A stretch of DNA of 20,000 nucleotides from Moniliella sp. 'wahieum' (taxonomy: Eukaryota). Positions within the stretch are counted from its first letter, which is position 1. Each line of letters begins with the position of its first letter. The position numbers and the translations under genes are program-made. The notes below the pieces were generated by a model. That model did no database searches, had not been told where the DNA came from, and saw only the letters and a list, made by a program, of their open reading frames with translations. Shown here one piece after another: positions 1,594-20,000 of this stretch. The stretch spans positions 1,299,583-1,319,582 of the forward strand of contig RSEE01000002.1 of the NCBI GenBank assembly GCA_003971905.1, given 5' to 3'.

Positions 1594-1797
1594 GCCTGGT
1601 TCTCCAGCGTCGTCGGCTGTCCCAGGTGAAAGCGCCTCTGAGATCTGACCGACGTTCGATCCCGCTTGAGCGATTGGCCGGTGGACAGCCGAGCGCTGAC
1701 GTCGGCGTGTGTTCTTCTCCCTGTGTGGACGCCTGCGGCCTCCACCCCATCAACCCCACCGTGCCCCGCGCCCCCCTCGCCCCCATCGCCTACCCCA

Positions 1798-4750
1798 ATG
1801 GCGGCGTCTCGTCTCGTCCGCGCCCGCGGATTCGCACCCACAGCAGCGCCACTCTCCTCGCCACCCTCCCCTGGATGTCTCCCCGCCCACCTACACCTAC
1901 TCCAACCGCCTCTACAAGGCCGGCGAGCTCCTCGATCCACTCCTCACTGCCACCTACGACGAGCCCGACAAGGTCCTGCTTTTGCCGAGGCGCTCAAGTA
2001 CGACGACCCCGCGTACGGTCTTGGCCAACACGACCCTAGCCCACCCACCTTGCTCGAAGACGCTGCCAGATACGCGGCTGAGGACAGGTCCGATGCTGCC
2101 GCTACGTCAAGCTTGTTGGCCCTGGAAGAGGAGCCTTCCCTACGCCGACGCACATCGCCTCGTACTTCCAGTCCAAGCGGTGGTAGTAAGCCGGGCCCGC
2201 GGCAGATCTTTGGCTTCCACCCGCCAGCAACAAGAAGAACAGCGACATGTTTTGTCTGCCGCTTCCGATTTTGCCCCCATCATGCAGCAGCTCCCCGACG
2301 GTAAGCGTAGCCATCGTCCTGCCAGATTGCAGGGCACCGACACAGGCCAAAGGGCCGGCCAACTCTACGCTTTGCTGCGTTGGCCTTTGTTGGCACTCGT
2401 CTTTGCCTGGATTGCGGTCTTGTTTTACGCCTATGTATTGACACGCCAAGCTGTTAATCTTGGCGAGTATCTATTGACGTGGCGTGGTCCCAAGCGTAAA
2501 CTCAGGGCCAAGCTGCGCCGGGCAAAGTCTGGGGCGAGTGATTTCCATTGCTCGTGAGATGGGACCAGCTTCTCGGCCTGGCTCGTGGAGGGAAAAGGGA
2601 CCTAGTGGGCTGTACGACTGGCTTTTGATCAAGAAGGTGACTCGCAGCCTGCGCTGTCCGTGAACGTGGCGATATCAACAATATCCTGGGTGTACTGGAC
2701 CTTTGTCTCCGCTCCAACTTTGCCGGCGTCGAAGGCTTCCGTCTGTACAGCGAGCCTACTTTGGCACCAAGCGCTTGATCGAGGATTACGTCGACGAAGT
2801 CGAGAGATCTCTGCGCTTTGTCGAGCATGCCGGACCGAACCTGATCTCACTTGAAAGCAAGCGCTCGTTTTACCGCGCGGTGCGGAAACGATTGGGTACC
2901 TCGGCTCTGTGCCTTTCGGGCGGAGCAAGTTTCGCCTACTACCACTTTGGCGTTGCTCGTGCGTTGCTCGATGCCGCGCTGCTACCCAAGGTGGTCACCG
3001 GTACTTCGGCCGGAGGCTTGGTGGCGCTTTGATCTGCACACGCCATGACCACGAGCTGGACCGTCTCCTCGTCCCCGAGCTGGCGGACCACATTACAGCC
3101 TGCGAGGAAAGCATCTTCACGTGGGGTCCACGTCTGTGGAAAGAGGGCTGCCGCTTTGACGCTCGTCTGTTTGCCGAAAGGCCCAATTTTTTACCTTGGG
3201 ATCACTCACCTTCCTCGAAGCATACCAGCGAACGGGAAAGATGCTCAACATCAGTGTCATTCCCTCGGATCGTAACAGCCCCGTTAAGCTCCTCAATTAC
3301 CACACTGCGCCAGACTGTGTGTTGGAGTGCCCTCTTGGCTTCAGCCGCGGTGCCTGGTGTGGTATGTCTGCCTCCGCTTTTACCTTTTCTTTTTTTACCC
3401 TTCAACGCAGCCGATACTGACCTTTGCGTACGTGCTTTGGAAGCTTCAACCGATTTGCCTCATGCAAAAGTCTCGTGCAGGCGATTTGAGTCCCATGAAC
3501 TGGGGCCATAGATTCAAGGATGGCTCGTTGCGCATGGACATTCCCCTTGCTGAGCTTCAATCGATGGGAGTCAACTATCCGATCGTGTCCCAAGCCAACC
3601 CCACGTACACCTGTTCTTCTTTGCGCCTCGGGGCATGCCTGGCCGACCTGTCGCCCATCGTAAGGGTCGAGGATGGCGGGGTGGCTTCCTCCTCGCTGCG
3701 CTGGAACATTTTCTAAAACTTCAGCTGAGTTTGTCCTTCCAGTTTCTTAAGGACCTTGACATTCTCCCTCAGGTGCGGGGCAAGACTGGAGCTCTGCCTT
3801 CTCCAGTCGTTTGGAGGGACCGTGACCATCTGGCCCAAGACGCGCGTATGGGACTGGCCTCGGATTCTGACTGACCCGGACCGGGCCGAGATGCTGCGTC
3901 TCTTGTCGGTTGGACAGAGTGTCACGTTCCCCAAGTTGGTACGTTGGGTTTCCTGTGGTTTGTCTTGCGGGCGCTGACTTGATTGTATCCCTCGTTCAAG
4001 ACATGATTGAGAACCGTATGCGCATCGAGCGAGCCGTGGAGAACATTCGTCGCACCGTGCACCACGAACTCAAGCGCGCCCGCGCCATCTCGAGTGGTCA
4101 CAACCTTGCCGTCGAAGCAGGGATTGAGCGCGCCGTGGTTTCCGGCATTGGAAGGGCTTTGGCCATGTACCAAAATCACGAACCTTTGACTGATACCGAT
4201 GGCGAGTTGGACGGTTCGGACCCGGCTCATGGCTCACGCCATGTCGCAGGCCGATCCCTTCGGTATTCATCGGTCGTGTTCAATGGCCGCCCCAGCTCGT
4301 CAGGCCGAGGCCACTCGTCTCCCCTGGCTGCCCGCCGGACTTGACTGAACCCAGCCACCCCGCAATGTCGCCGCCCAAATCCCGCTCTCACGCATCCGAC
4401 GTGCGGCGGCTGCCTCGGACCACGAGTCTACTGGCGACGAACACTACGTCTCGGCTGCGGATCCCGAGGAGGTCAAGGAGAGAAACGAGCACGACTCCGA
4501 CCACGACCTCGACCCCGACCCGGAGCACATGGAAGACGAGGCTCCTTTGACGGCTGCCTTACTGGCCCAACCGCATCATGACGCTCAGCCGCCATCGCGG
4601 ACCCCCGTGCTTGCCAGTGCCGACCTCACCCTCACCCTGCCCTACATCACTCCGTTTGCCAGCCGAGGCACCATCAGCCAGGACCGCAGCGTCCCCACCC
4701 CGCCTTGGCTGACCGAAGACGAGTCGGATTCGGATGGTTCGACAGCCTAA
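1798..4750 (+). CDS. patatin-like phospholipase / triacylglycerol lipase (TGL3/TGL4/TGL5-like, DUF3336 + patatin); frameshifted in this assembly, start uncertain
   Basis: Joining frames gives LSAASDFAP, a TM segment (LLRWPLLALVFAWIAVLFYAYVLTRQ), YDWLLIKKV...NFAGVEGFRLYSE.YFGTK, oxyanion motif ALCLSGGASFAYYHFGV (~2903-2953), nucleophile GTSAG (3000-3014), LTFLEAYQRTGKMLNISV, WSALLASAAVPG, catalytic FKDGSLRMDIP, and PKL.MIENR. Introns 3362-3443 (GTATGT..CTGAC..AAG) and 3939-4000 (GTACGT..GCTGAC..CAAG). Stop TAA at 4748-4750. Confidence 0.9.
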
Positions 4751-5322: not shown

Positions 5323-6387
5323 TCAGAGCCCTGCGGGGGCCGGATGGGTCTGGCGCCAATGTTCGGCAATTTGAGAGCGGGTGGCCACCCAGACGCCCTC
5401 ATGTTTCTGGATGTAATCCAGAAACGCAACCAGGCCCGGGAACCGGCCAGGGCGCCCAATCACACGGCAGTGCAGGCCAATGCTCATCATCTTTGGCTCC
5501 CCTTCTCGCCCTCGGCATAGAGCGTGTCAAACGCGTTCTTGAGGTACTCGTAAAAGGGCGTAGCACCACTGAACCCAGGCGCCTGCGCAAATTTCATGTC
5601 ATTGTTGTCCAACGTGTAGGAATCACCAACAGCGGCGGCGACTTTTCCGTCCGCGAGGTGAGGGGCTTTTGACCCAGTAGGGTAGGTCCTCGTCATCTGG
5701 GAAAAGAAAGTAAGGGTGAGTTAGGATCTGGTTTGTTCTGGAGTAGGGACTGCGGGGGGACAACGAGGAAGAGGGAACGAGGACGTACAGGCATCACTGT
5801 CGTAGTACTTGTCTAGCAAACCGAGTTGACGGTACTTTTCATACACGATGCGACGTGTCTGGAGCGACTGACGGCCAGTGTACCATCCCAGCGGCACCGT
5901 TCCCGCGAAGAAGCTTTGGAGAGAGCGGCAATGGTAAGGTCGACATGTTCCCGCTCTTCCTGTTCGGGCGTTTGCCAATAGTCAATCCAGCGGTACGAAT
6001 GCGAGCCCACCTCACACCCGGCATCTTCCATCGCATCCACCACGGCCGGGTTCAACTCGACTGCGCGTCCGATGGCCCAGGAGGTAAACACCAAACTGCG
6101 TTCTTTGAACAGGTTGAGGATGCGCCAAAAGCCACGGTGGGCACCGTACTCGTACCCACTCTCGACGCACAAGTTACGGCCGTCGCGCGACGCGCCCGTA
6201 GCGCCCGACTCGGACAGGAACGCCTCGCTGTGCTCGTCGCCATTGAGCACCGTGTGCTCGCCGCCTTCCTCGTAGTGAGCACAAACGAGTGCACCCTTGG
6301 CGCCGCCGGGCACTGGGCGTTGGGCAGGTGCGGGCCGTAGCCGACCATGTCGCGCGTGGCGTGGTCGAGAAGCGCGGGGGCAGACAT
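5323..6387 (-). CDS. puuE: polysaccharide deacetylase (CE4) family protein of the PuuE/SpCda1 subfamily, probable allantoinase
   Basis: MSAPALLDHATRDMVGYG...YEEGGE...ESGYEYGAHRGFWRILNLF...AVELNP...SHSYRWIDY...GWYTGR...DSDAY|DEDLPYW...YTLDNNDMKF...AFDTLYAEG...MMSIGLHCRVIGRPGRF...WVATRSQIAEHW. Intron 5697-5788 (GTACGT..CTAAC..CAG) restores DAYDEDLPYW. Stop TGA at 5323-5325. Confidence 0.88.
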
Positions 6388-6436
6388 GGATGTGGATGTG
6401 GGGTGGGGGCAACGGTGGAGGCGAGGGAAGAGAGGG

Positions 6437-6460
6437 TGGAGGTGGAGGTGGAGGTGGAGG
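6437..6460. repeat. (GGAGGT)n microsatellite in the 5' region of the puuE-like gene
   Basis: Direct tandem hexamers visible in the sequence. Confidence 0.75.
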
Positions 6461-6971
6461 GGTGGGGGTGGGGAAGGAGGGCAAGGCAGAAGGCACAGGG
6501 GGCCGTCAGGACAGCCTGCCTGGCCCACGGTACTCTTAAGCTGCATCCAGCAGCTTCGTATCGCCTGCCCATTGGATCGGTGCAAGCAGCGGCGTGAGTC
6601 AGTGATAACGACGCGCCCACTGCATCGGCAGGGGGGCAGCGCAACGTTCGCTCGCATCGCCCAGCGCTTGCGCGGAAGCGTTCCGCGCGCCACAGCTAGG
6701 GTTGGCTGTGTCCCTCGGGTCCCTGCCTGCGTCCCCGTGCCCACAAGTGGTTCAAGTGTTGCTTCCTCGAGATCTTCTGGGATCTGATCATCGCAAAGCT
6801 TCAAGCTTCACTTCAAGCTTCAGGGCAACGCCCCAGGCCTCAGGCTGAGGCCCCACCCGGCCCGGCCCGGGCGCACCCGAGCGGGACCGAGCTTGGGCAC
6901 CTTGCCGGAGGTCCGTCTCCAGGTGGGCTGGCGTCTGCAACGATGCTCCCGACTGCTCCCGACTGCGCCAG

Positions 6972-9990: not shown

Positions 9991-10671
9991 CATGCTCGAC
10001 CACCGACCACTCGATCACTCTGGGGCGTCGATGATTCATGATTGGGGGTGATGCGACGGTGCCGCTGGGAGGGCTGGGCAAGGCCGATCAGGGCAGGCGG
10101 CAGGGTGCATGTGCGGCCGTGCGTTCGACAGCCAGGGCCGGCCGGCGCGAAGCGCTGCCAAGCCACCGCCTTGCACATGCAGCCCAGGGTGCACAGGCGC
10201 GCCCTGGCGCACCACAGCACACCAAAGCACACAGCACGCACGCCGCAGCCGCGCCAGCCGGCCGGAGGGACCGAGGATTTGGGTGTGATGCAAGCGACGT
10301 GGGACGTGTGACTGGTGTCGCAGCCAGCCGGGCGCTGCCGCGGCCAAACACCAGACACCAGCACCCCCTCTGAGTAAGCGCAGACCCAGCAGCCCGCCTG
10401 TGTCGCCCTCGGGCCCCACGCGCAGCCACACGCTGGCCCCCCACCCACACTGTCCCACTGCCCCCGCTCCCAAATCCGATTTGGGGTATATTCCTCCCAG
10501 CGCCCCCCACCGCCGATCCTTCAAGCTTCACCCTTCCCTCCCTCACCGCCAACGCCCAGCCGGCACACCATCGCCGCCTTCCCCATCCGTCGGTCCCCTC
10601 CTCCCCCTCCGCCACCAGCCCCCCCCCTCCTTCCTCCTTGGCACGCCAGCGGAACAGCCGCCCCCACCGCC

Positions 10672-12115
10672 ATGAACGCGTCGCCCTCAGCCCCGTCCCT
10701 GTTGGAATCTCCGATGCACCTCCTGCCCACCCGCTCGGCCTCAGTCAAACACCCATCCTTCCGCGCCTTCATCCCAGCCAGGTCTGGCGCCGCCCACGCC
10801 TCCGCCTCTGCCTCGACAATCCACTTTCCGAGTCGTCAGGCCATGCTCGTTCCCGTACTCGGTCTCTCTCTCGTCCCCAGCGCACCCCGCGCCCCTTCTC
10901 GCAACTCCACGGGTCGTTTGTCGCGCCCGCCTCCCGGCTGGCTTAGCGCTAGCTCCTCAACCCCCGCACTCACTGCGTCGCCTCCCACATCACCCCATCG
11001 GCACCTTGGCACCACCTGCCCCGTCCCCCTTCTGGATGTGCCCATTACGCTCACCTTGGACGCGTGTCCGCTGTCTCCCTCCCCGGCGCCTTGCCCCATC
11101 TGCCCATCTTGCGCACCAGCCGTGCCCACTCCCTCCTCCCACCCCCTTGCCCAGTCTCCAAACCTCGCCCGATGTCATCTCGGGTCGCAGAGCCCACACG
11201 GACCAAGTCGATGTTCAGATCCCATCTCTCCTCTGCGCCCGGTGCTGCCCTTCCCCCTCCCCAGCCCATCCCTCCCCCGGCTCACACAGTGGACTCACTC
11301 TGCCCTGATTGAGCTGCGGGACATTTTCAACCTCGAGTCCTCCCCGTCCACATGGGCCGTGCAGCAGCTCCTCTTCCTATCCAAACAGAAGGAGACTGCC
11401 CTCAGCCCAGCTGCCATCCTCTCCCCACGTACCAACCAGGCCCAAGCGCTGGAACCATCAAAGCCCCCGTCCCAAGCCGCGCCGGGTCATTCCCGTCCCG
11501 AGTTTGGCCTGCCTACCCCAACGCAGTTGGAGGCGAGCTTCTTCTGGCATCCCTCCTTGTCACAGCGATGGCAGGCGCGGGTACGTCAAGCCGACGCGAT
11601 TTCGTCCGTGCTGCCTCGGGTGCTGTTGCTTCAGAGCAGCTTCCTGTTGCTTGGGGCAGTATGTGCATTTGGTTCGGCGCCACTTGGGTGCGCACCTCGC
11701 ATCTCGTTTCCACCCTCGTTGCCGCTGGCATGGACGGCTGTTCGCGCTTGGTCCGCGCCCACGTGCTGGTCCAACTGGTTTCCACCGCCTATGCGGCCGC
11801 AGAGCTGGCGTCCAGGCGCACTATGGCGACTCGCACTCCGTTCGTTCCGTCGGCTCCTGGGAGGCGCAGGCGACCTGGGTCCCAGCTGCCATCGTCCTCG
11901 CCCTGCCCGCCTTGGTGTTCCTCGCTTGGGCCCAGTTTCATCCCGCTCGTCAACTCGCCGCGTTGGCCGTCCAGTCCGCTCGCAGCGCCGCCCGGCCCAG
12001 CCCGTGGCCGCAGCGGCGGCTGTCACGGTCGCGGTCCCCACCCCGCGCTCCACCACCCCTCGTTCGCTACGCCACCACCCCCGGACCCAGTACTAGTATC
12101 TGCATGTCTATGTAA
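10672..12115 (+). CDS. hypothetical protein with Ser/Pro-rich N-terminus and possible C-terminal transmembrane helix; frameshifted, structure uncertain
   Basis: ATG in CCGCCATG context at 10672; long open frame; helical segments ALIELRDIFNLESSPSTWAVQQLLFL, RAHVLVQLVSTAYAAAELA, and hydrophobic WVPAAIVLALPALVFLAWAQF in shifted frames; followed by more AT-rich 3'UTR-like sequence. Confidence 0.45.
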
Positions 12116-13719
12116 TCTCCTATACCCATTCATCCATTGCATCCTCTTCATTTGCACAATGTTTGCTCGGCTACAGCAGTCGCTTCCAACCGGCTCAGGC
12201 TTCTGCGTTGTTTCTCGCCCGGAATAGTCCAGATGAGGTAGCCAGTTGATCCTCGTCGCTTCCCATGCATTTCGCCTTCACACTCGGCCTTGCGTCCAGT
12301 CCGAGTCCGAGTCCGAGTCAGACTCAAAGGGTGTGAACGTGGACGAGGGAGGGATGGGATTAGGTTGGTTGGCGGCGAGCGCGACTGTAACTAGTACCCC
12401 CTATAGCCATAATGCTTCGAACTAGGCGATTCAGGGATTTCGACCGAACCTGATGTGCAACCTCGTTAGACGCTGCCTGTCTCGACAGCAAAAACTACTC
12501 GCGGCCCTCCCACGTTCACGCCAGTGTGCCTTGTACTTGGGATCTGAACCGCGTTCAGTTCTCCGTCATTCTTGTCCGCGATGGGCAGGGAAGGTCTCCG
12601 CCTGGAAGCCAGCAACCCCCTCACAATACTCCAAACGAACAAACGGGTAGATGCAATGGGAAGCCACGTGTGCTTGGGCGGGCACCGGGCAGAGGAGTCC
12701 CGTTCCATTCTTTGCGAAGGGGAAACGGTTCTTCCTTGCAGTGGGAATCCTGCGGATAAAAGAAATAGGAACCGTGGGGGGGGGGGGTGAGCTCCCCCCC
12801 CTCCTTGCGGATTCTTGCACACGGTACTGATGGTGCGTCTCGGTCCGTGCTGCGCTTACAAAAGGTGCAGCGACACAGAATGGCTGTAGCCACGGACGGA
12901 CGATGCTCTGATCCAATTGAGAGTGAGAGCGGATGAAGACCATTGTGGTCTGCTTGGATATGGTGTTGGACGCTGCAGTTGCTGTGGCACAGGAAAAGAA
13001 GGCAGAGGAAATATGGGGTTGCAGAGCAATGTCGGAGAGGTCTCTTCAAGTCTCAAGTCTGTTGCTTGTCAAATTGAAAAGGCCTAGAGCAAGATCTCCG
13101 TTGATACATCCCAGCCCGCGTGGCATATACAAGGCCGATGAGCACTGAGTATTGAGCACTGGACTCAACAGGCCAAACAGACTGCAACCTTCTGGCAGCA
13201 GACGTTTCGGCAAGAAGGGTGGGGGGGGGACAAGCGAAGACTAATGGTACAGAGAGGGCCAACACGACAGCATCGAGAGACAAGGTCGGAAGAGACCAGT
13301 GATAGCGCCATTCCTTCGTGAGGAAGAAGCCAGAGCACAACTGAAGAGCACGTATGGAGAGCTGCATTATGAAGCAAAACGCACAGAACAGAAAGCGCGC
13401 GAGATGCGCAAAGACAGAAGTTGGGAGTGGGTGCGAGGCCAGCGGTTGGTGGTTGTGGGGGGGGCGACACAGAATCGCAACACTTCTGAAACATTATATG
13501 CCGAGTAAGGCGTAAGGCCTAAGGAGATACATACCCAGGTTTCGATACTGTGTGCGCTATATAATCTGCGAGCGTGAGAAGCGTTCGGCAGATCCCGGCA
13601 GTCGAAGTGGCGAAGAATGCGCTGGGTTAGGCTCGATGAGAAAAGTCCGACACATGACCTGCCTGCATGACCCTCATCGACATCATGCATCAACTATGGC
13701 TGAGAGAGAGCAAGCCGCT

Positions 13720-13754
13720 AACCCGTCAACCTGTCAACCTGTCAACCTGTCAAT
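13720..13754. repeat. 9-bp tandem repeat (AACCTGTC-type), about 4 copies
   Basis: aacccgtcaacctgtcaacctgtcaacctgtcaatc. Confidence 0.8.
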
Positions 13755-14286
13755 CGGCCATTGGAAGGCCGTTACCGGTTACCGGATCATCCATAGTATT
13801 AACGCTCCACAGCCCAGGAAGATTGTCAGTTTATACGGGTTTACACTTAGTATTAGTATACACTGATGCACTGCGAGCTGGCCGGGTGGAAAAGTTGAGT
13901 ACGCTGTCAGAGCGCTGCGTGCTGCGAACTGAGACGTATACTGAGTACAGAGGCTTATTGTCTCACAGAGCGGGCATTGTGCATTGCATCAGGTGTTTCG
14001 TGCCATATGCATAATAGGGACGAAAATGGCTGCGTTTGCGAGGCTGCTGTTGCAGCTAGGTTTTGGTGGGAACACTCAATACCTTAACTCTCAGCTGAGA
14101 TCGATGCTGCCGGTGAGAAGGGAGGCTTTGGCACGAGGTGGGGCCTGGGGACCGATCAGAAGATCATCCGTGCTGAGACGTCGAGGTTGAGACGGCCTGA
14201 TATGGATGTACGGGTGCGGGAGGGGGGGGCATAGTGAAGGGGGGGGGGGGGCAGCATGGGCTCATCCAGTGCTTTGGTACGAATGG

Positions 14287-14330
14287 CCAATGCAGGCCGC
14301 ATTGGCGCTGCATTATTGGATTTGCATTGG
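14287..14330. promoter_or_regulatory. cluster of four CCAAT boxes upstream of ERG5
   Basis: CCAAT 14287-14291; ATTGG at 14301, 14315 and 14326; 270-315 bp before the ERG5 ATG. Confidence 0.4.
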
Positions 14331-14600
14331 ATTTGTATTGCCGCATTGCAGGGCAGTCTACCAGTCGCACACCCCGCAGGCACCGGGCGGTGAGGCCGTA
14401 CGGCCCAGATGGCGTCAGGCGGGCACCCTGCATGGCGCCAGTGTGCATTACCCCATTTATCTGCGCGGTGCGCCGCCGGCACTGCGCCGCTGTTGCCAGC
14501 GGGTCTCTGCCGCCGCTTCAGGCTCCAGGCTTCCAGGCCAGCTGCTTTTCTTGGCTTCCTGCGCCAGCTCCTCTTCCCACCACCACCTGATCCTCCCATC

Positions 14601-16269
14601 ATGTCCTTTGCCGCCAACGCCTCGGCGACCGCCAACGTGGGCCCTTAGCCGCGCCTCTCTCGGTGCTCGCCACCCTGCCAATATTGGTGTCTCGGTGGTC
14701 GCGCTGTTTGCTACCTTGCTCATCTTTGAGCAGGTCAACTACCGCAACAAGAAGGGCAACCTCCCGGTGCTCCGTGGACCATCCCCATCATCGGCCGTTT
14801 TCTTGATTCTCTCCACCCCACCCTCGAGAACTACAAGAAAGGATGGGCCCAGGGACCCTTTCCGTCACCTCCGTCTTCCACATCTTCATTGTCCTTGCCT
14901 CCAACAACTACTTTGCGCGCAAGATCCTGACGAGCCCCACCTTTGCTGAGCCCTGCCTCGTCGCGTCCGCCAAGCAAGTCCTGTGCCCCGACAACTGGTG
15001 CGTCTCATCTCTCCCCCCATCCTCCCTCGTTGATTCCTGCCCCCTTTCCTAACTTGACATTTTATCCCAGGGTGTTCCTCGCGGCAAGGCCCATGTTGAT
15101 TACCGCAAGGGCCTCAACACGCTCTTTACCCGTCGTTCTCTCGCCATCTACCTGACCATCCAGGAACGCATCTACTCCAAGTACTTTGACAATGGCTCTC
15201 CAACCCTTCGCCCGATGCGCAGCCGATGATGTTCCCGTTCCGTGACCTGAACATGGAGACGTCCCTGCGCGTCTTTTGTGCGTGAGTATCTGCCGCAGGA
15301 GGCGGCCGACCAGATCAGTTCCGAGTTTTGGCTCATCACGGTCGCTCTTGAATTGGTCAACTTCCCTATCCCTCTCCCCGGTACCAAGGTATGGAATGCA
15401 ATTCAGGCCCGCAAGCGCATGATGAAGTGGCTCATGTCGGCTGTCGCTCAAAGCAAGGAGGCCATGACGGCCGGCGAGAGAGGTGACCTGCCTGACCGAT
15501 GCTTGGATTAAGAACATGATCGAGGCGCGCCGTGACACGGAGGGCGAGTCGGAAGAACTTAGCCGTGCTTCTCGTCTCGCCTTGGTGCGCGAGTTTGACG
15601 ACCGTGAGATTGCCATGACGGTGCTTTCGTTCCTGTTTGCGTCGCAGGATGCCATGTCCTCGGCTCTGATCTACCTCTTCCAGCACATGGCGGACCATCC
15701 TGAGCTTCTGCAGAAGGTGCGTGAGGAGCAGTACCGTCTGCGTGGCGACGACATCGATGCACCCATCACTACGACCTGTTGGAGGAGATGGACTACACGC
15801 GCTGGGTCGTTAAGAGAGCATGCGCGTCGCTCCGCCCGTGATCATGGTCCCTTACCTGGCCAAGAAGCCGTTCCCCATCTCCGACTCGTACACTGCTCCC
15901 AAAGGCTCCATGGTCATTCCCTCCTTCTGGGACTCGCTCCATGACGAAGAAGTCTACCCCAACGCCGATAAGATCGTCCCTGAGCGCTGGGACCCTGCTA
16001 AGGGGGGCGACAGCCCCGAAATGACCCGCAACTACCTCGTCTTTGGCGCCGGCGTGCACAACTGCATTGGCCAGCAGTATGCCATCATGCACCTCACTGC
16101 GTCCTGGGCGCTGCGTCGGTCAAGATGAACTGGCACACCAGGTCACCCCCGAGTCGGAAAAGGTCAAGATCATTGCCACCATTTCCCCAAAGACGACTGT
16201 TTGCTCAAATTCACCAAGCGCCCGATCCCGCCGCCCGGTACCGCCCCCGAGGTGGCCGCTCAGCCATGA
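14601..16269 (+). CDS. ERG5: sterol C-22 desaturase, cytochrome P450 CYP61; frameshifted in this assembly
   Basis: N-terminal anchor [68 protein letters not shown] (intron 14998-15070, GTGCGT..CTAAC..CAG); [18 protein letters not shown]-helix [33 protein letters not shown] (ExxR); PERW; heme motif [25 protein letters not shown]. Stop TGA at 16267-16269. Confidence 0.95.
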
Positions 16270-16774
16270 ACGAACTTGCCTTGCAAACCCCTCTCCCCTC
16301 TCTCTTTTTCCCTCCCTAACCCATCCATCTGTCTCTTCCTTTCTTTCCGGAGCGCCCTTCCGCGTGCTCATGTCTCGCCGCGGACTCTCCTGGCTCTCAT
16401 ACATGCCATGCCCTTGCCCTTGCCTCTTGTCCTGCTGATCGCCCCTATCATGGAATCCATACCAAGCAACGTTGTGGACTAGCGTGTTTTCTCCCCGGTG
16501 CGGGCCTATCTCATCGCGACCGCGGATTTGTTCGCGAAATAGACGGTGGAATCCATAAGGGATCGGGAAAGGGACGGGGGTGGTTGTCGAGCAAGGAAGG
16601 ACGCAATGAGCGCTAGGCTAGTACGGTAGGTAATTAGCAAGAGCAAAGACGATTGGGCCGGTCGTGCCGGCGCCGCATGGCGTCTTGGGCCTATCTGTCT
16701 GCTACCTACATACTTACTACATACCCCGGCAGCGCCACAACTGCGAGCCAGTCAAGGAGAGACGCAGACCAGAA

Positions 16775-16808
<34 letters not shown>
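16775..16808. repeat. (GCAGAC)5 microsatellite
   Basis: Five perfect GCAGAC hexamers between the convergent ERG5 and kinase 3' ends. Confidence 0.85.
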
Positions 16809-17016
16809 CAGCGGCAGTGGTAGGCAATGCAATGGGGCTGCGTTGGTTGGTATGGGGCAAGACGAACAGAACTGGATCAAAACAGATGCCGAGGCACAAA
16901 CAATTTGGTAACTCCACCTTCTGCCGCACCTACACACACCCAGACCCACACCCACACCCACATCCTCACCCCGATGCACACCCCCTCCCCGGCACTGGGT
17001 CGCGCCTCGCCTGCGC

Positions 17017-19957
17017 TCACAACAACCCGTCCCGCCGGCCGCACGGAACAGCTTGGCCAGCGCACGGTTGCGCCCTCGGCACCCTGACCCGGGGCGAGGT
17101 GGGTGGTGGTGGTGGTTGGGCCGACGTGCGGCGGGGACACGACATCGGCGACCGAGGTGGCTGGGTGGGGCTTAGTGGCCTGCGCAGCGCGCACACCACG
17201 GGTCGACCATTGGCGGGCGGAGGCGCGGCCATGGAAGAGGAAGCACAGGATGCGTGGGATGCGTGGGAAGTGTGGGGAAGTGTGGGATGCGTAGGAGGCG
17301 CAGGAGGCACGGGAAGCACGATGGGATTCGCTCGGGAGCGAACGGACGCTGGAGCCAGTGGGGTGGTGGGACTGGGACGGGGTCGAACAAAGATTTCGCG
17401 AGGTAACTCGCGTCCAAAGCGGGTTGCGTGCGCGACTTCCCCCTGCTCTTGGCGGGGTTGGGGCCCGAGGCAGTGTGGAGCGAGCGCGGACGCAGCTCCG
17501 AAATCGGATGCAGGTTCCGGTTCACAGCCGCCCTCGGCCGTGCGCGAACGCGGCGGTGGCGTTGGAATGGGAATGGGACGAGTCGAGCGACCGACGAACA
17601 GTGGGACCAGCAGGCGCCGAGGCGGCCACGCGAGGAATAGATCGAGGCGCCATCGTCGGCATTAGAGAACAGGGACGTTGTCCACGAGCCGGTTCCGCCC
17701 GCGCCCTGCGCACGGGGGGGACACCGGCTCCCATTCCATTCCCACTGCCACTGCCACTGCCACTCGCCCCGCTCAACAAGGAGCCACGCAAACTGGTCGC
17801 CGTACTGGCCGTGCTGGGCCGAACCCGAAACCACTGAGCCAATCGACAGCGGATCCAAGCGAAGCTTGGTCTGCGTTCAGGGACAGATTGGAACGACCAT
17901 CCTGCCCTCGGCCGTGCCCACGGGCCCGCGGGCAAATGGGCACCCAGAACGCGGGCGGCCTTGTCGGGGAATGACCGGGGTACACCGACGCATCTCTCGC
18001 TCGCATTTCGCCTGGCAGAGGCGCGATCCAGTGCGGTGATGGGCCACGCGACGAGGCGGGTGACGGTGACAGGTGGGGGGAAGGCGACGGCGCAGAGGGG
18101 GCCAGCCCGAGACCGAGGCCGAGGCTCAGGCTCGCTTCGGCCTCAGCCTCGCCCTGGGCCAGACACGCTGCACCAGGACCGGGATGGACCATGTCGCTCG
18201 AGTTGCGTCGCGAAGCGGAAACGTGAGCTTTGTGCGCCGACGCGGCCCGTCGGTTGCCGCGCTTGCGTCGGCGGCCAGAAGATGCTTGCGACAAGACACT
18301 CTCCCGTTCTCCGTTGGGTAACGCCGCATCCCCAGACGCGCCTCCGTCCACTTGGTTCGCGCGCAACCCCACCTCCTCCGCTTCGTCATCCGACACGGCC
18401 GCCGAATACGCCGCACGCGAACGTCGCGTACCGGTGTGGCCAGCTCCGCGTTCGGCTTGCCGCACGGCAGGGTTGGAGCTGCCGCGGGCGGACGGGAGCG
18501 GGACCGCGGCGGGCGCGAATGCGAATGCGAGCGGGAACGGTGGGGATCCGCGCAGAGGGGCAGGGTGATGCCCATCGCCGCGCCACGAGATAGGCTGCGG
18601 TCGGAATCGGACAAGGCGAGGAGGGTGGGGAGCAAGGCGGTGCGCGCCCAGAGCGCAATTTGCCTAGGCGTCGCCCGTCGGTCCGGGTTGGGATGCAGAA
18701 TGTGATGGGCAAGGAAGGAGGCGGCAGGGTGGGGCAAGCTGTCGAATGCGAGCACGAGAAACTCGATGGGGTCCGACTCGAAGCACGCATACGAGGGACA
18801 CGTTTGGCGCGTGCCAGGCGAAAGGGTGCCGATGGAACAAGAGATTGAGTAGCACAATGCCCAACGCCCACGTGTCCGCTTGCATCGGGTCGTACACATG
18901 ACCGTCGTCTATGCACTCGGGCGCCAAGTACGCGTCGGCAGTGCATCCGCCATCATCGCACGTCGAGTCGGTAGTAGCATGGTGCAGTCCCATGAGCTGA
19001 GAATCGCCCTCGGTTCCGTCTCCTGCGCTTCGGATGCCGTCGAGGCCCGGTGGGTACGACGGTCATGGCCACGAGGTTGTGCGGCTGGATGTCTCGGTGG
19101 GCCAAGCCCCAGTCGTGCAAGACTTGCACCACGTCGCACAATTGCGCAAATAAGTCGATCACGACGCGGAGACGAGGCGGAGAAAAGAGGAGCGGGCCCT
19201 CGGTCACCGCTAGCCAGGCCAACGCACCGAGGTTTTCCAGATGGGGATCGGGATCGGGAGGCGCGGCGGGCGCAGCGGGCAGAGCCGCAACAGCCAAAGA
19301 TGTAAAAGCAGCGGACATCGTCTCTGCTGGGCGAGTTTCACTGAGCTCGAGCAAGTAAAACAGATCATGCCCAGGAACGAGTCATTGAGAACAAAGAGAT
19401 GGTGGGGCGTATCGAGCAGGGCATAGCGAGTGACCAGGTTGGGATGGATAGGGAGCGAGAGATGGAAGTGAGCGTCGGACAACTCGTCGGCTAAGAGCGC
19501 GGGGAGAGGTAGTATTTGGACAAGCACGTGAGCAGCAACACGGCGTCCTGATCCGTGTCCACTGCCGCCGGCTCCAGCGTGCGAGGCAAGGGCGCGCCGG
19601 CAACCTGGCGAACAAGGTAGATGCTCGTGTACACGCCCTGGCCCAGGCTCTTGACGACCGCCACCGTCGGGCCAGCCCGGGCGTGTCGGGGCGGACAGCA
19701 AGCAGACGCACGGGGTGGGAGCGATGGGTCTCGTTCGGGCCCAGTCGGTCGCCGGGGAGCAGCGGGGGGGCGTCGTCACTCGGCGTGCCAGAATCCAGGC
19801 TGCGTGCGGGGGGGACGCGTGGGCTGCTGGGCGCCGAGGGGGGCGGGCGGGCGGTGTCGGTCAGGGGGCAGGCTGCAGCGGGGGGGCGGGGTGTGGGGGC
19901 GAGTGTGTCGGGCGGCGGGCGGGGGACGGGAGGGACGACGCAGGTGGGGCGGCACAT
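17017..19957 (-). CDS. Ran1/Pat1-like (SKS1/VHS1-related) Ser/Thr kinase-fold protein with degenerate catalytic motifs and a long Ser/Pro-rich C-tail; frameshifted, both ends approximate
   Basis: Joining frames gives KSLGQGVYTSIYLVRQV; LLLTCLSK; HLSLPIHPNLVT; DLFYLLE; LFAQLCDVVQVLHDWGLAHRDIQPHN; YLAPEC; YDPMQADTWALGIVLLNLLFHRHPF; HPNPDRRAT; basic motif GRRRKRG in the tail. Confidence 0.8.
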
Positions 19958-20000
19958 AGCGCGACGCGGGCGGGGGCGGGGGCGGGGGGGCTGGCAGGGC

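What the first reader, a model, noticed from the sequence alone, without database searches (positions are those of the whole stretch)
17017..19957. Candidate fungal pseudokinase: Ran1/Pat1-like kinase missing the beta3 Lys, catalytic-loop Lys and DFG
Seen: kinase subdomains I-XI are all present and in order, but (i) the usual (Y/V)AIKCL reads LLLTCLSK (ACG/Thr at 19527-19529); (ii) the alphaC Glu position reads Asp (LSDAHFH); (iii) HRDIKPEN reads HRDIQPHN (19076-19099); (iv) the DFG position reads GLH (18982-18990) within LMGLHHATTDSTCDDGGCTADAYLAPEC, which lines up without gaps against the expected LxDFGLxTT...Y..PEC. These are in-frame multi-codon substitutions, so they are not the indel errors seen elsewhere. 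Known: the beta3 Lys and DFG Asp are needed for ATP/Mg binding, and their loss defines pseudokinases. Inference: retention of the structural residues with no nonsense codons in the domain suggests a maintained, catalytically dead paralogue acting as a scaffold or decoy in nutrient or sexual-development signalling.
Basis: partly seen in the sequence, partly recalled or inferred. Interest (0 to 1): 0.72.

Follow-up and report, generated by a model that had tools for sequence, protein, structure and literature searches.

The report
Dead kinase copies kept in fungus
A smut-related fungus keeps several copies of a signalling kinase that have lost the residues needed for catalysis but still hold their fold and docking tails, so they most likely act as non-enzymatic scaffolds or competitors beside their working sister kinases.

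Summary
All four substitutions (beta3 K>T, alphaC E>D, catalytic-loop K>Q, DFG>GLH) lie at the stated coordinates and recur in a second copy, C50, whose indels fall elsewhere. Six of the window's seven kinase-domain frameshifts are private to it, so they are probably long-read errors; the shared one fits the error rate but is unchecked against reads. The gene belongs to a five-copy dead clade (C2/C50, C14/C19, C44) beside eight DFG-keeping paralogue copies. dN/dS is 0.33 (0.16-0.67) between C2 and C50 and 0.16-0.23 among the other dead copies. Losses cluster in the ATP and catalytic half; the lower C-lobe, tail motifs and C-terminus are kept. It is a RAN-family gene, but not the Ran1/Pat1/Sks1 orthologue; those are separate genes. 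The four ERG5 copies found all flank a dead copy, and the Malassezia vespertilionis homologue also neighbours ERG5. The N-terminal YVPPHLR motif also ends eIF3a here and resembles the DDX3/Ded1 motif, a lead to translation control. Best reading: a maintained, probably ATP-blind scaffold or competitor. No expression, binding or activity data. Earlier scan notes showed no similar finding.

The parts
17017..20000 (-). Whole pseudokinase gene, about 1000 codons, no intron seen; the likely ATG lies about 3 nt beyond the contig end (present in C50 at L003:6347)
19938..19958 (-). N-terminal YVPPHLR motif; also in C14, C19 and C44 (broken by indels in C50); same 7-mer ends eIF3a copies of this genome; outside relatives have YRPPHLR
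18620..19753 (-). Protein-kinase domain (Pfam PF00069), split over three frames by seven one-base breaks
19629..19646 (-). Gly-rich loop LGQGVY, first two glycines kept
19527..19535 (-). beta3 A-x-K replaced by L-L-T (Ala>Leu, Lys>Thr), shared by all five dead copies
19501..19504 (-). C-run holding the one frame break shared by the C2 and C50 copies; error or real lesion unresolved
19474..19476 (-). alphaC Glu position reads Asp (Glu in C14/C19, Asp in C44)
19076..19099 (-). Catalytic loop HRDIQPHN: Asp and Asn kept, Lys>Gln (C14, C19, C44 read HRNVTLQN, no catalytic Asp)
18979..18996 (-). xDFG region reads LMGLHH: Thr>Met, DFG>GLH (DLS in C14/C19, ELS in C44)
18913..18945 (-). Activation segment ending YLAPEC; Gly-Ser lost; lacks the intron that splits the Glu codon in 8 of 8 DFG-keeping copies
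18859..18876 (-). alphaF D-x-W-x-x-G, kept
18564..18587 (-). Post-kinase motif RGAAMGIT, shared with own paralogues and Tilletiaria P0013
18247..18276 (-). Basic tail motif GRRRKRGNRR; Asn shared with own paralogues, Ala in 49 of 63 outside cases
17634..17657 (-). Tail motif DDGASIYS, also in C50; similar motif in P0013 and P0059
17397..17417 (-). Tail motif LDASYLA, present in all five dead copies and in a variant form in 7 of 8 DFG-keeping copies
17017..17060 (-). C-terminal basic-hydrophobic motif LAKLFRA and stop; dead copies C50, C14, C19 and C44 share a GR[RK][DE]G[LC]L end
14698..16270 (+). Neighbour ERG5 (sterol 22-desaturase, P450), tail-to-tail; synteny marker and frameshift control, not part of the mechanism

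Best explanation
The gene encodes a maintained pseudokinase that arose by duplication of a long RAN-family Ser/Thr kinase in a smut-related fungus. Shown: loss of the beta3 Lys, alphaC Glu, catalytic-loop Lys and DFG Asp, purifying selection, and retention of the lower C-lobe and tail motifs. Inferred: it cannot transfer phosphate and probably binds ATP poorly, because beta3 Ala>Leu and xDFG Thr>Met put larger side chains at pocket-lining positions. It still folds as a kinase. It would use the tail motifs it shares with its active paralogues to dock at the same partners or places, and so scaffold or damp that pathway. The N-terminal YVPPHLR motif points to the translation-initiation machinery as one such place.
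For: Substitutions shared by two copies with different indels. Five dead copies form one clade, 100/100. dN/dS: C2/C50 kinase domain 0.33 (0.16-0.67; 18 synonymous and 18 non-synonymous differences in 366 codons), first 160 tail codons 0.14, C14/C19 0.16, C14/C44 0.23; C14 against C50 is saturated at synonymous sites (pS 0.77) with pN 0.26. C14 has a 903-codon open frame over the whole domain. Conserved columns kept: 35 of 65 before the APE Glu against 20 of 24 from it on (Fisher p 0.014); C14 36 of 65 against 22 of 24 (p 0.001); active C62 63 of 64 and 22 of 24. C-terminal motif and stop conserved in all three dead lineages. AlphaFold2 of the C14 domain with an alignment gives pLDDT 90 and CAMK-group kinase matches. 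The YVPPHLR-type pattern has 16 genome hits against 5 for the control; 7 of the 16 are in this family and 3 end eIF3a copies (2 confirmed by Pfam).
Against: One frame break is shared by both copies of the window's locus and could not be checked against reads. No expression data. The fold model is of the paralogue C14, was driven by an alignment of active kinases, and failed without it (pLDDT 37). Pocket occlusion is read from alignment columns, not measured; PMC4718504 warns that nucleotide binding cannot be predicted reliably from sequence. The dead copies' short N-termini lack other N-terminal blocks of the active forms (one search hits, read by eye), so partners may differ. Placement inside the genome's own family is weak: one side of a branch in 3 of 5 trees (55/77, 85/72, 60/99), not in 2. 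The subfamily did not group with the ascomycete clade I take for Ksp1 (p-AU 0.005), which weakens the translation link.
Confidence: 0.6

Rival explanations
1. A maintained pseudokinase with a new role of its own, no longer tied to the partners of its active paralogues.
For: Very long stem branch, 1.4 to 3.0 changes per column depending on model. Clade-specific changes fixed in the dead copies: shortened N-terminus, YRPP>YVPP, own C-terminal extension, new sequence ahead of beta1.
Against: The tail motifs of the active family are kept in order.
Confidence: 0.2
2. The clade was functional, but the window's locus (C2/C50) is a recent pseudogene broken by the shared frameshift.
For: One break is shared by both copies. 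C2/C50 has the highest dN/dS of the five haplotype pairs (0.33 against 0.07-0.28).
Against: dN/dS stays below 1 downstream of the break (tail 0.14, upper bound 0.39). About 0.32 shared one-base losses are expected in this domain from the measured homopolymer error rate. The DFG-keeping pair C9b/C38 also shares a C-run break. ERG5 carries 10 breaks in each of C2 and C50.
Confidence: 0.12
3. An atypical active enzyme using displaced catalytic residues (WNK- or CASK-like) or another transfer reaction.
For: The window's copy keeps the HRD Asp, the catalytic-loop Asn and both G-loop glycines. Known exceptions exist (PMC4718504, passages).
Against: No Lys at the third G-loop position, which reads Thr or Ser (WNK rule recalled). 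The beta3 Lys that CASK keeps is lost. The dead lineages lost different residues (A: DFG Asp; B: HRD Asp), so no alternative active site is conserved.
Confidence: 0.05
4. The motif changes are sequencing or assembly artefacts.
For: The assembly is error-rich: 58 of 63 indels between the two copies shift the frame.
Against: Identical multi-base substitutions in two copies, and beta3 L-L-T in five copies on five contigs. None is an A-to-G change, so A-to-I editing could not restore them (read from the codons).
Confidence: 0.02

Closest known systems
Fungal Other/RAN kinases (S. pombe Ran1/Pat1, S. cerevisiae Sks1, Vhs1, Ksp1; A. nidulans An-Ran1, An-Ksp1; PMC3591445, passages)
   Same: Nearest named kinase family; the Malassezia Sks1-like protein P0158 turns up among the hits.
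   Different: Belongs to a separate long subfamily. Best hits are 33-41% identical, unnamed proteins of Tilletiaria, Ustilago, Malassezia and Tilletia. It lacks the catalytic residues these keep.
Pseudokinases with an occluded pocket, such as VRK3, ROR2, BIR2 (PMC4718504, passages)
   Same: Loss of beta3 Lys and DFG Asp; larger side chains at pocket positions; fold retained.
   Different: Unrelated kinase group; occlusion here is inferred; active sister genes sit in the same genome.
BubR1/Mad3, recurrent dead paralogues of Bub1 (PMC3591445, passage)
   Same: Duplication followed by loss of catalysis in one copy while short motifs are kept.
   Different: Here dead and active copies both keep the tail motifs; no clean division of motifs was found.
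Poxviral MLKL decoy; FAM20A (PMC13519141, passages and section 4.4)
   Same: A dead kinase fold that inhibits or activates the pathway of its active relative.
   Different: No partner is shown here; cellular and multi-copy, not viral.
DDX3X 38-44 YIPPHLR and Ded1 21-27 motif (PMC11251518, PMC7343385, passages)
   Same: Near-identical 7-mer in a low-complexity N-terminus. In those helicases it is needed for association with eIF4A, eIF4F and ribosomes.
   Different: Here it sits on a pseudokinase and binding is untested. The DDX3X peptide did not bind eIF4E directly. That Ded1 21-27 reads YVPPHLR is recalled; the passages name only Y21, R27 and G28.

Membership tests
Pseudokinase (sequence definition) | Eukaryotic protein-kinase domain | tested here: met
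   PF00069 above cut-off for C50 (47.2 bits) and C14 (59.1); window pieces 16.5 and 30.1 bits, below the 31.7 cut-off because split; fold of C14
Pseudokinase (sequence definition) | Lacks one or more of beta3 Lys, HRD Asp, DFG Asp | tested here: met
   Window and C50 lack Lys and DFG Asp; C14/C19 lack Lys and HRD Asp; C44 lacks Lys and HRD Asp and reads Glu at DFG
Pseudokinase (functional) | No phosphotransfer activity | not testable with these tools
   needs an assay
Pseudokinase (functional) | Expressed, intact protein rather than pseudogene | tested here: inconclusive
   dN/dS below 1 and conserved termini; one shared break unresolved; no reads to lay
Non-nucleotide-binding pseudokinase | No ATP or cation binding | not testable with these tools
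   Ala>Leu, Thr>Met and Val>Ile suggest it; model coordinates could not be measured
Ran1/Pat1/Sks1/Vhs1 orthologues | Groups with Sks1-type kinases | tested here: not met
   p-AU 0.003; separate Sks1-type genes at C7, C86, C87, C54; AVKCL and HRDLKPEN found in 4 of 4 loci read, DFG in 3 of 4
Ksp1 orthologues | Groups with ascomycete Ksp1 | tested here: inconclusive
   Grouping with five ascomycete-type proteins rejected (p-AU 0.005), but their identity as Ksp1 is recalled from a motif and the outgroups are long branches
Long RAN-family subfamily of basidiomycetes (unnamed; P0013 type) | Nested in that clade, shares its tail motifs | tested here: met
   Inside the clade at 100/100 and in its smut-fungus branch at 98/93; tail motifs
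WNK- or CASK-type atypical kinases | Relocated Lys (WNK) or retained beta3 Lys (CASK) | tested here: not met
   Thr/Ser at the third G-loop position; Thr at beta3; WNK position recalled

The most novel reading that the evidence does not exclude
The dead clade is a natural substrate sink or decoy for its own active paralogues. It keeps their docking tails, its YRPPHLR has become the eIF3a/DDX3-type YVPPHLR at the very N-terminus, and it competes at the translation-initiation machinery to set the output of a kinase family that grew to eight copies. A 2026 review (PMC13519141, section 4.4) says no pseudokinase substrate sink or dead-paralogue poisoning case is known.
Probability: 0.15. Interest if true: 0.78.

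Novelty: new member of a known kind. Interest (0 to 1): 0.47.

Why it matters
Pseudokinases born by duplication are a known kind, but I found no description of this one in the paper searches run, and no public protein closer than about 42% identity. One genome holds a graded series: intact copies (C62, C17, C33, C9b, C38), single-residue variants (C9a/C18 Asn>Ser, C6 Lys>Thr) and dead copies with complementary losses. That is a compact system for asking how a kinase becomes a pseudokinase, and whether a dead paralogue can act as a decoy, which a recent review lists as an open case.

Tried and rejected
No sequencing run was listed for 12000-20000, so no reads were laid; this says nothing on expression. 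No related loci were confirmed in metagenome contigs, so synteny outside G000 rests on consecutive Malassezia vespertilionis accessions and a fused gene model. The single-sequence fold failed (pLDDT 37). The search for longer homologues covered only 2380-5000 residues and was uninformative. The Atlas gave only generic kinases. Complex prediction of dead with active paralogue was not available, so there is no verdict. The eIF4A-type pattern found only two broken loci that look like eIF4AIII by eye, so peptide binding was not modelled. Rejected: that DFG aligns to S-W-G across a frameshift (C50 reads LKLMGLHH). Rejected: that only dead copies keep the tail motifs (a first strict pattern suggested so; looser patterns found them in 7 of 8 active copies). 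Rejected: rescue by RNA editing. The C2/C50 dN/dS was discarded because part of C2 was out of register, and redone. The Malassezia test was void (names did not match) and was redone: neither placement is rejected (p 0.40 with own paralogues, 0.086 with Malassezia). Retrocopy against in-place intron loss cannot be decided from one intron; the ERG5 neighbourhood favours in-place loss.

Full report
Observation. The window is the last 20 kb of contig C2 of G000 (69.5 Mb, 223 contigs). A kinase gene runs on the minus strand from the contig end to a TGA at 17017-17019. The four substitutions are at the reported places: Thr 19527-19529, alphaC Asp 19474-19476, HRDIQPHN 19076-19099, GLH 18982-18990. 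They lie in three different frames, so the first question was whether anything here can be trusted.

Errors against real changes. A second copy lies on C50 at 95% identity. Between the two, 58 of 63 indels shift the frame and 37 of the 58 lie in homopolymers. ERG5 next door has 10 breaks in each of C2 and C50. This is the pattern of an unpolished long-read assembly (inference). Six kinase-domain breaks are private to the window. With each copy's gaps covered by the other, everything from alphaC to the basic tail motif falls in one stop-free frame; further downstream the motifs change frame twice more, which I did not resolve. One break, in the C-run at 19501-19504, is shared. About 0.32 shared losses are expected from the measured run-length error, and the DFG-keeping pair C9b/C38 shares one too. 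It is probably an error, but no reads could be laid. The four substitutions are identical in both copies, and C50 reads LKLMGLHH in one frame from HRD to APE.

The family in this genome. Searches found 13 copies (lower bound). Eight keep DFG: C62/C17, C33, C9b/C38, C9a/C18 (catalytic Asn>Ser) and C6 (catalytic Lys>Thr; beta3 unreadable). Five are dead: C2/C50, C14/C19 and C44 (no partner found). C14 has a 903-codon open frame covering the domain; C44 shows six breaks and one stop in my read-through and may be decaying or badly called. All five read L-L-T at beta3. Four read Met before the DFG position (C44 unreadable) and all five Leu at the Phe. Beyond that the lineages differ: C2/C50 lost the DFG Asp and kept HRD; C14/C19 kept the Asp (DLS) and read HRN. 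Five pairs have dS 0.06-0.08, as for two haplotypes or subgenomes; C14/C44, C62/C33 and C9a/C6 have dS 0.9-1.3, an older round of duplication.

Selection. With my own Nei-Gojobori script and codon bootstrap, dN/dS is 0.33 (0.16-0.67) for the C2/C50 domain, 0.14 (0-0.39) for 160 tail codons, 0.16 for C14/C19 and 0.23 for C14/C44. Active pairs give 0.07, 0.26 and 0.28. C14 against C50 is saturated at synonymous sites while 26% of non-synonymous sites differ. Residual base errors would push these ratios up. Of 89 columns at least 90% conserved in 86 outside homologues, the window's gene keeps 35 of 65 before the APE Glu and 20 of 24 from it on (p 0.014); C14 keeps 36 of 65 and 22 of 24 (p 0.001). 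I dropped 14 of the first 100 hits before this count: nine fragments or other subfamilies (P0004-P0012), four partial domains and P0057, which reads NFG. Among all 159 hits a few other single variants exist (P0057, P0101, P0102, P0116, P0149), none close to this clade.

Relatives and origin. The best of 1.84 billion representatives are 33-41% identical; two word-based searches found nothing over 46%. Named top hits are single proteins of Tilletiaria, Ustilago, Violaceomyces, Tilletia and Malassezia, which places the organism among smut-related fungi. The dead copies form one clade (100/100) on a long stem inside this long RAN-family subfamily. They are not Sks1/Ran1 orthologues (p-AU 0.003; separate genes). 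Whether they arose within this genome's own expansion is likely but not shown. Three of five trees join them weakly to the own paralogues, two do not, and neither placement is rejected. The tail helps: R-K-R-G-N-R is in all five dead copies and five active ones, while outside proteins have Ala in 49 of 63 cases and Asn in one. The four ERG5 copies found each flank a dead copy. In Malassezia vespertilionis the active homologue and ERG5 have consecutive accessions and were once fused in one model, in head-to-tail order. The dead gene may thus hold the ancestral site; this rests on one outside genome. All eight DFG-keeping copies have an intron in the APE Glu codon; the four dead copies readable there lack it.

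Anatomy and mechanism. The protein is a short proline-rich N-terminus with YVPPHLR, a kinase fold, and a long low-complexity tail with conserved motifs ending in a basic-hydrophobic C-terminus. AlphaFold2 on C14 with a 62-row alignment gives pLDDT 90 and matches SIK3, CHK1 and other CAMK-group kinases; the alignment of active kinases favours that outcome. By established kinase chemistry, loss of the beta3 Lys, alphaC Glu, catalytic Lys and metal-binding Asp should abolish transfer. Ala>Leu (Ala in 85 of 86) and Thr/Ser>Met suggest a filled pocket (inferred). What selection keeps is the fold, the lower C-lobe and the motifs shared with the active kinases. I therefore commit to a non-catalytic docking role in the same pathway, as scaffold or competitor (0.6).

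A lead on place of action. The Y-x-PPHLR pattern has 16 hits in the genome against 5 for its control; 7 are in this family. Exact YVPPHLR occurs in four dead copies and at the end of three near-identical genes, two of them confirmed as eIF3a by Pfam. Twelve of 28 outside relatives carry YRPPHLR. In DDX3X the like motif is needed for co-purification with eIF4F and ribosomes but does not bind eIF4E directly (PMC11251518). Ded1 residues 21-27 contribute to eIF4A binding (PMC7343385). Yeast Ksp1, a RAN-family kinase, controls phosphorylation of eIF4G and Pbp1 (PMC6781900), but Ksp1 orthology was not supported here. This is a hypothesis.

Literature seen. Passages: PMC4718504, PMC11251518, PMC7343385, PMC6781900, PMC3591445. 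Passages and all of section 4.4: PMC13519141. Others only as search listings. Five searches for fungal or RAN-type pseudokinases listed no description of this family; the library lacks most subscription papers, and kinome-wide pseudokinase surveys with supplementary tables that I did not see could list relatives. Earlier scan notes held nothing on this sequence.

Verdict. A real pseudokinase clade under purifying selection, new as a family member, of a known kind. Interest 0.47; 0.78 if it proves a decoy for its own paralogues.

Noticed in passing
G000 whole; C9a/C18, C6, C62/C17, C33, C9b/C38: The genome shows layered duplication: pairs at dS 0.06-0.08, an older layer at dS 0.9-1.3 and saturated older splits; four ERG5 copies, at least three eIF3a copies, 13 copies of one kinase that appears single in the relatives named.
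   Followed up: partly
L045:4457-6595 (C9a), L041 (C18), L046 (C6): DFG-keeping paralogues carry single catalytic-loop changes: Asn>Ser in both C9a and C18, Lys>Thr in C6; possible early stages of a second loss of activity.
   Followed up: partly
L042 (C44:396299-398899): Fifth dead copy without a haplotype partner or adjacent ERG5 hit, with more breaks and one apparent stop; may be decaying.
   Followed up: partly
P0102, P0101, P0057, P0116, P0149: Independent degenerate members of the same subfamily elsewhere (Auriscalpium HRN/DLD, Artomyces HRN, Roridomyces NFG): repeated loss of catalysis in this family.
   Followed up: no
P0160 (PKI84783): A public Malassezia vespertilionis 'Erg5p' model of 1259 aa is a fusion of this kinase gene with ERG5; likely an annotation error.
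   Followed up: partly
window 14698-16270 (+), about 1700-4750 (+), 5816-6505 (-): Other genes of the window: ERG5 P450, a patatin/DUF3336 lipase and a polysaccharide deacetylase; ERG5 has 10 frame breaks and the lipase is split over several frames.
   Followed up: partly
L048:311-2367, L046:1316-1948, L047:1282-2256, L051:7854-9846: Active copies C62 and C6 flank an alpha/beta hydrolase (DNA similarity extends this to C17, C9a, C18); C9b/C38 flank glucose-6-phosphate dehydrogenase.
   Followed up: no
window 10378-12224 (+): Long GC-rich, proline-rich open frames without a Pfam match; not identified.
   Followed up: no
window 16777-16806 and 17744-17761: Short hexamer tandem arrays downstream of and inside the gene; a neighbouring array differs in length between the two copies.
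   Followed up: no
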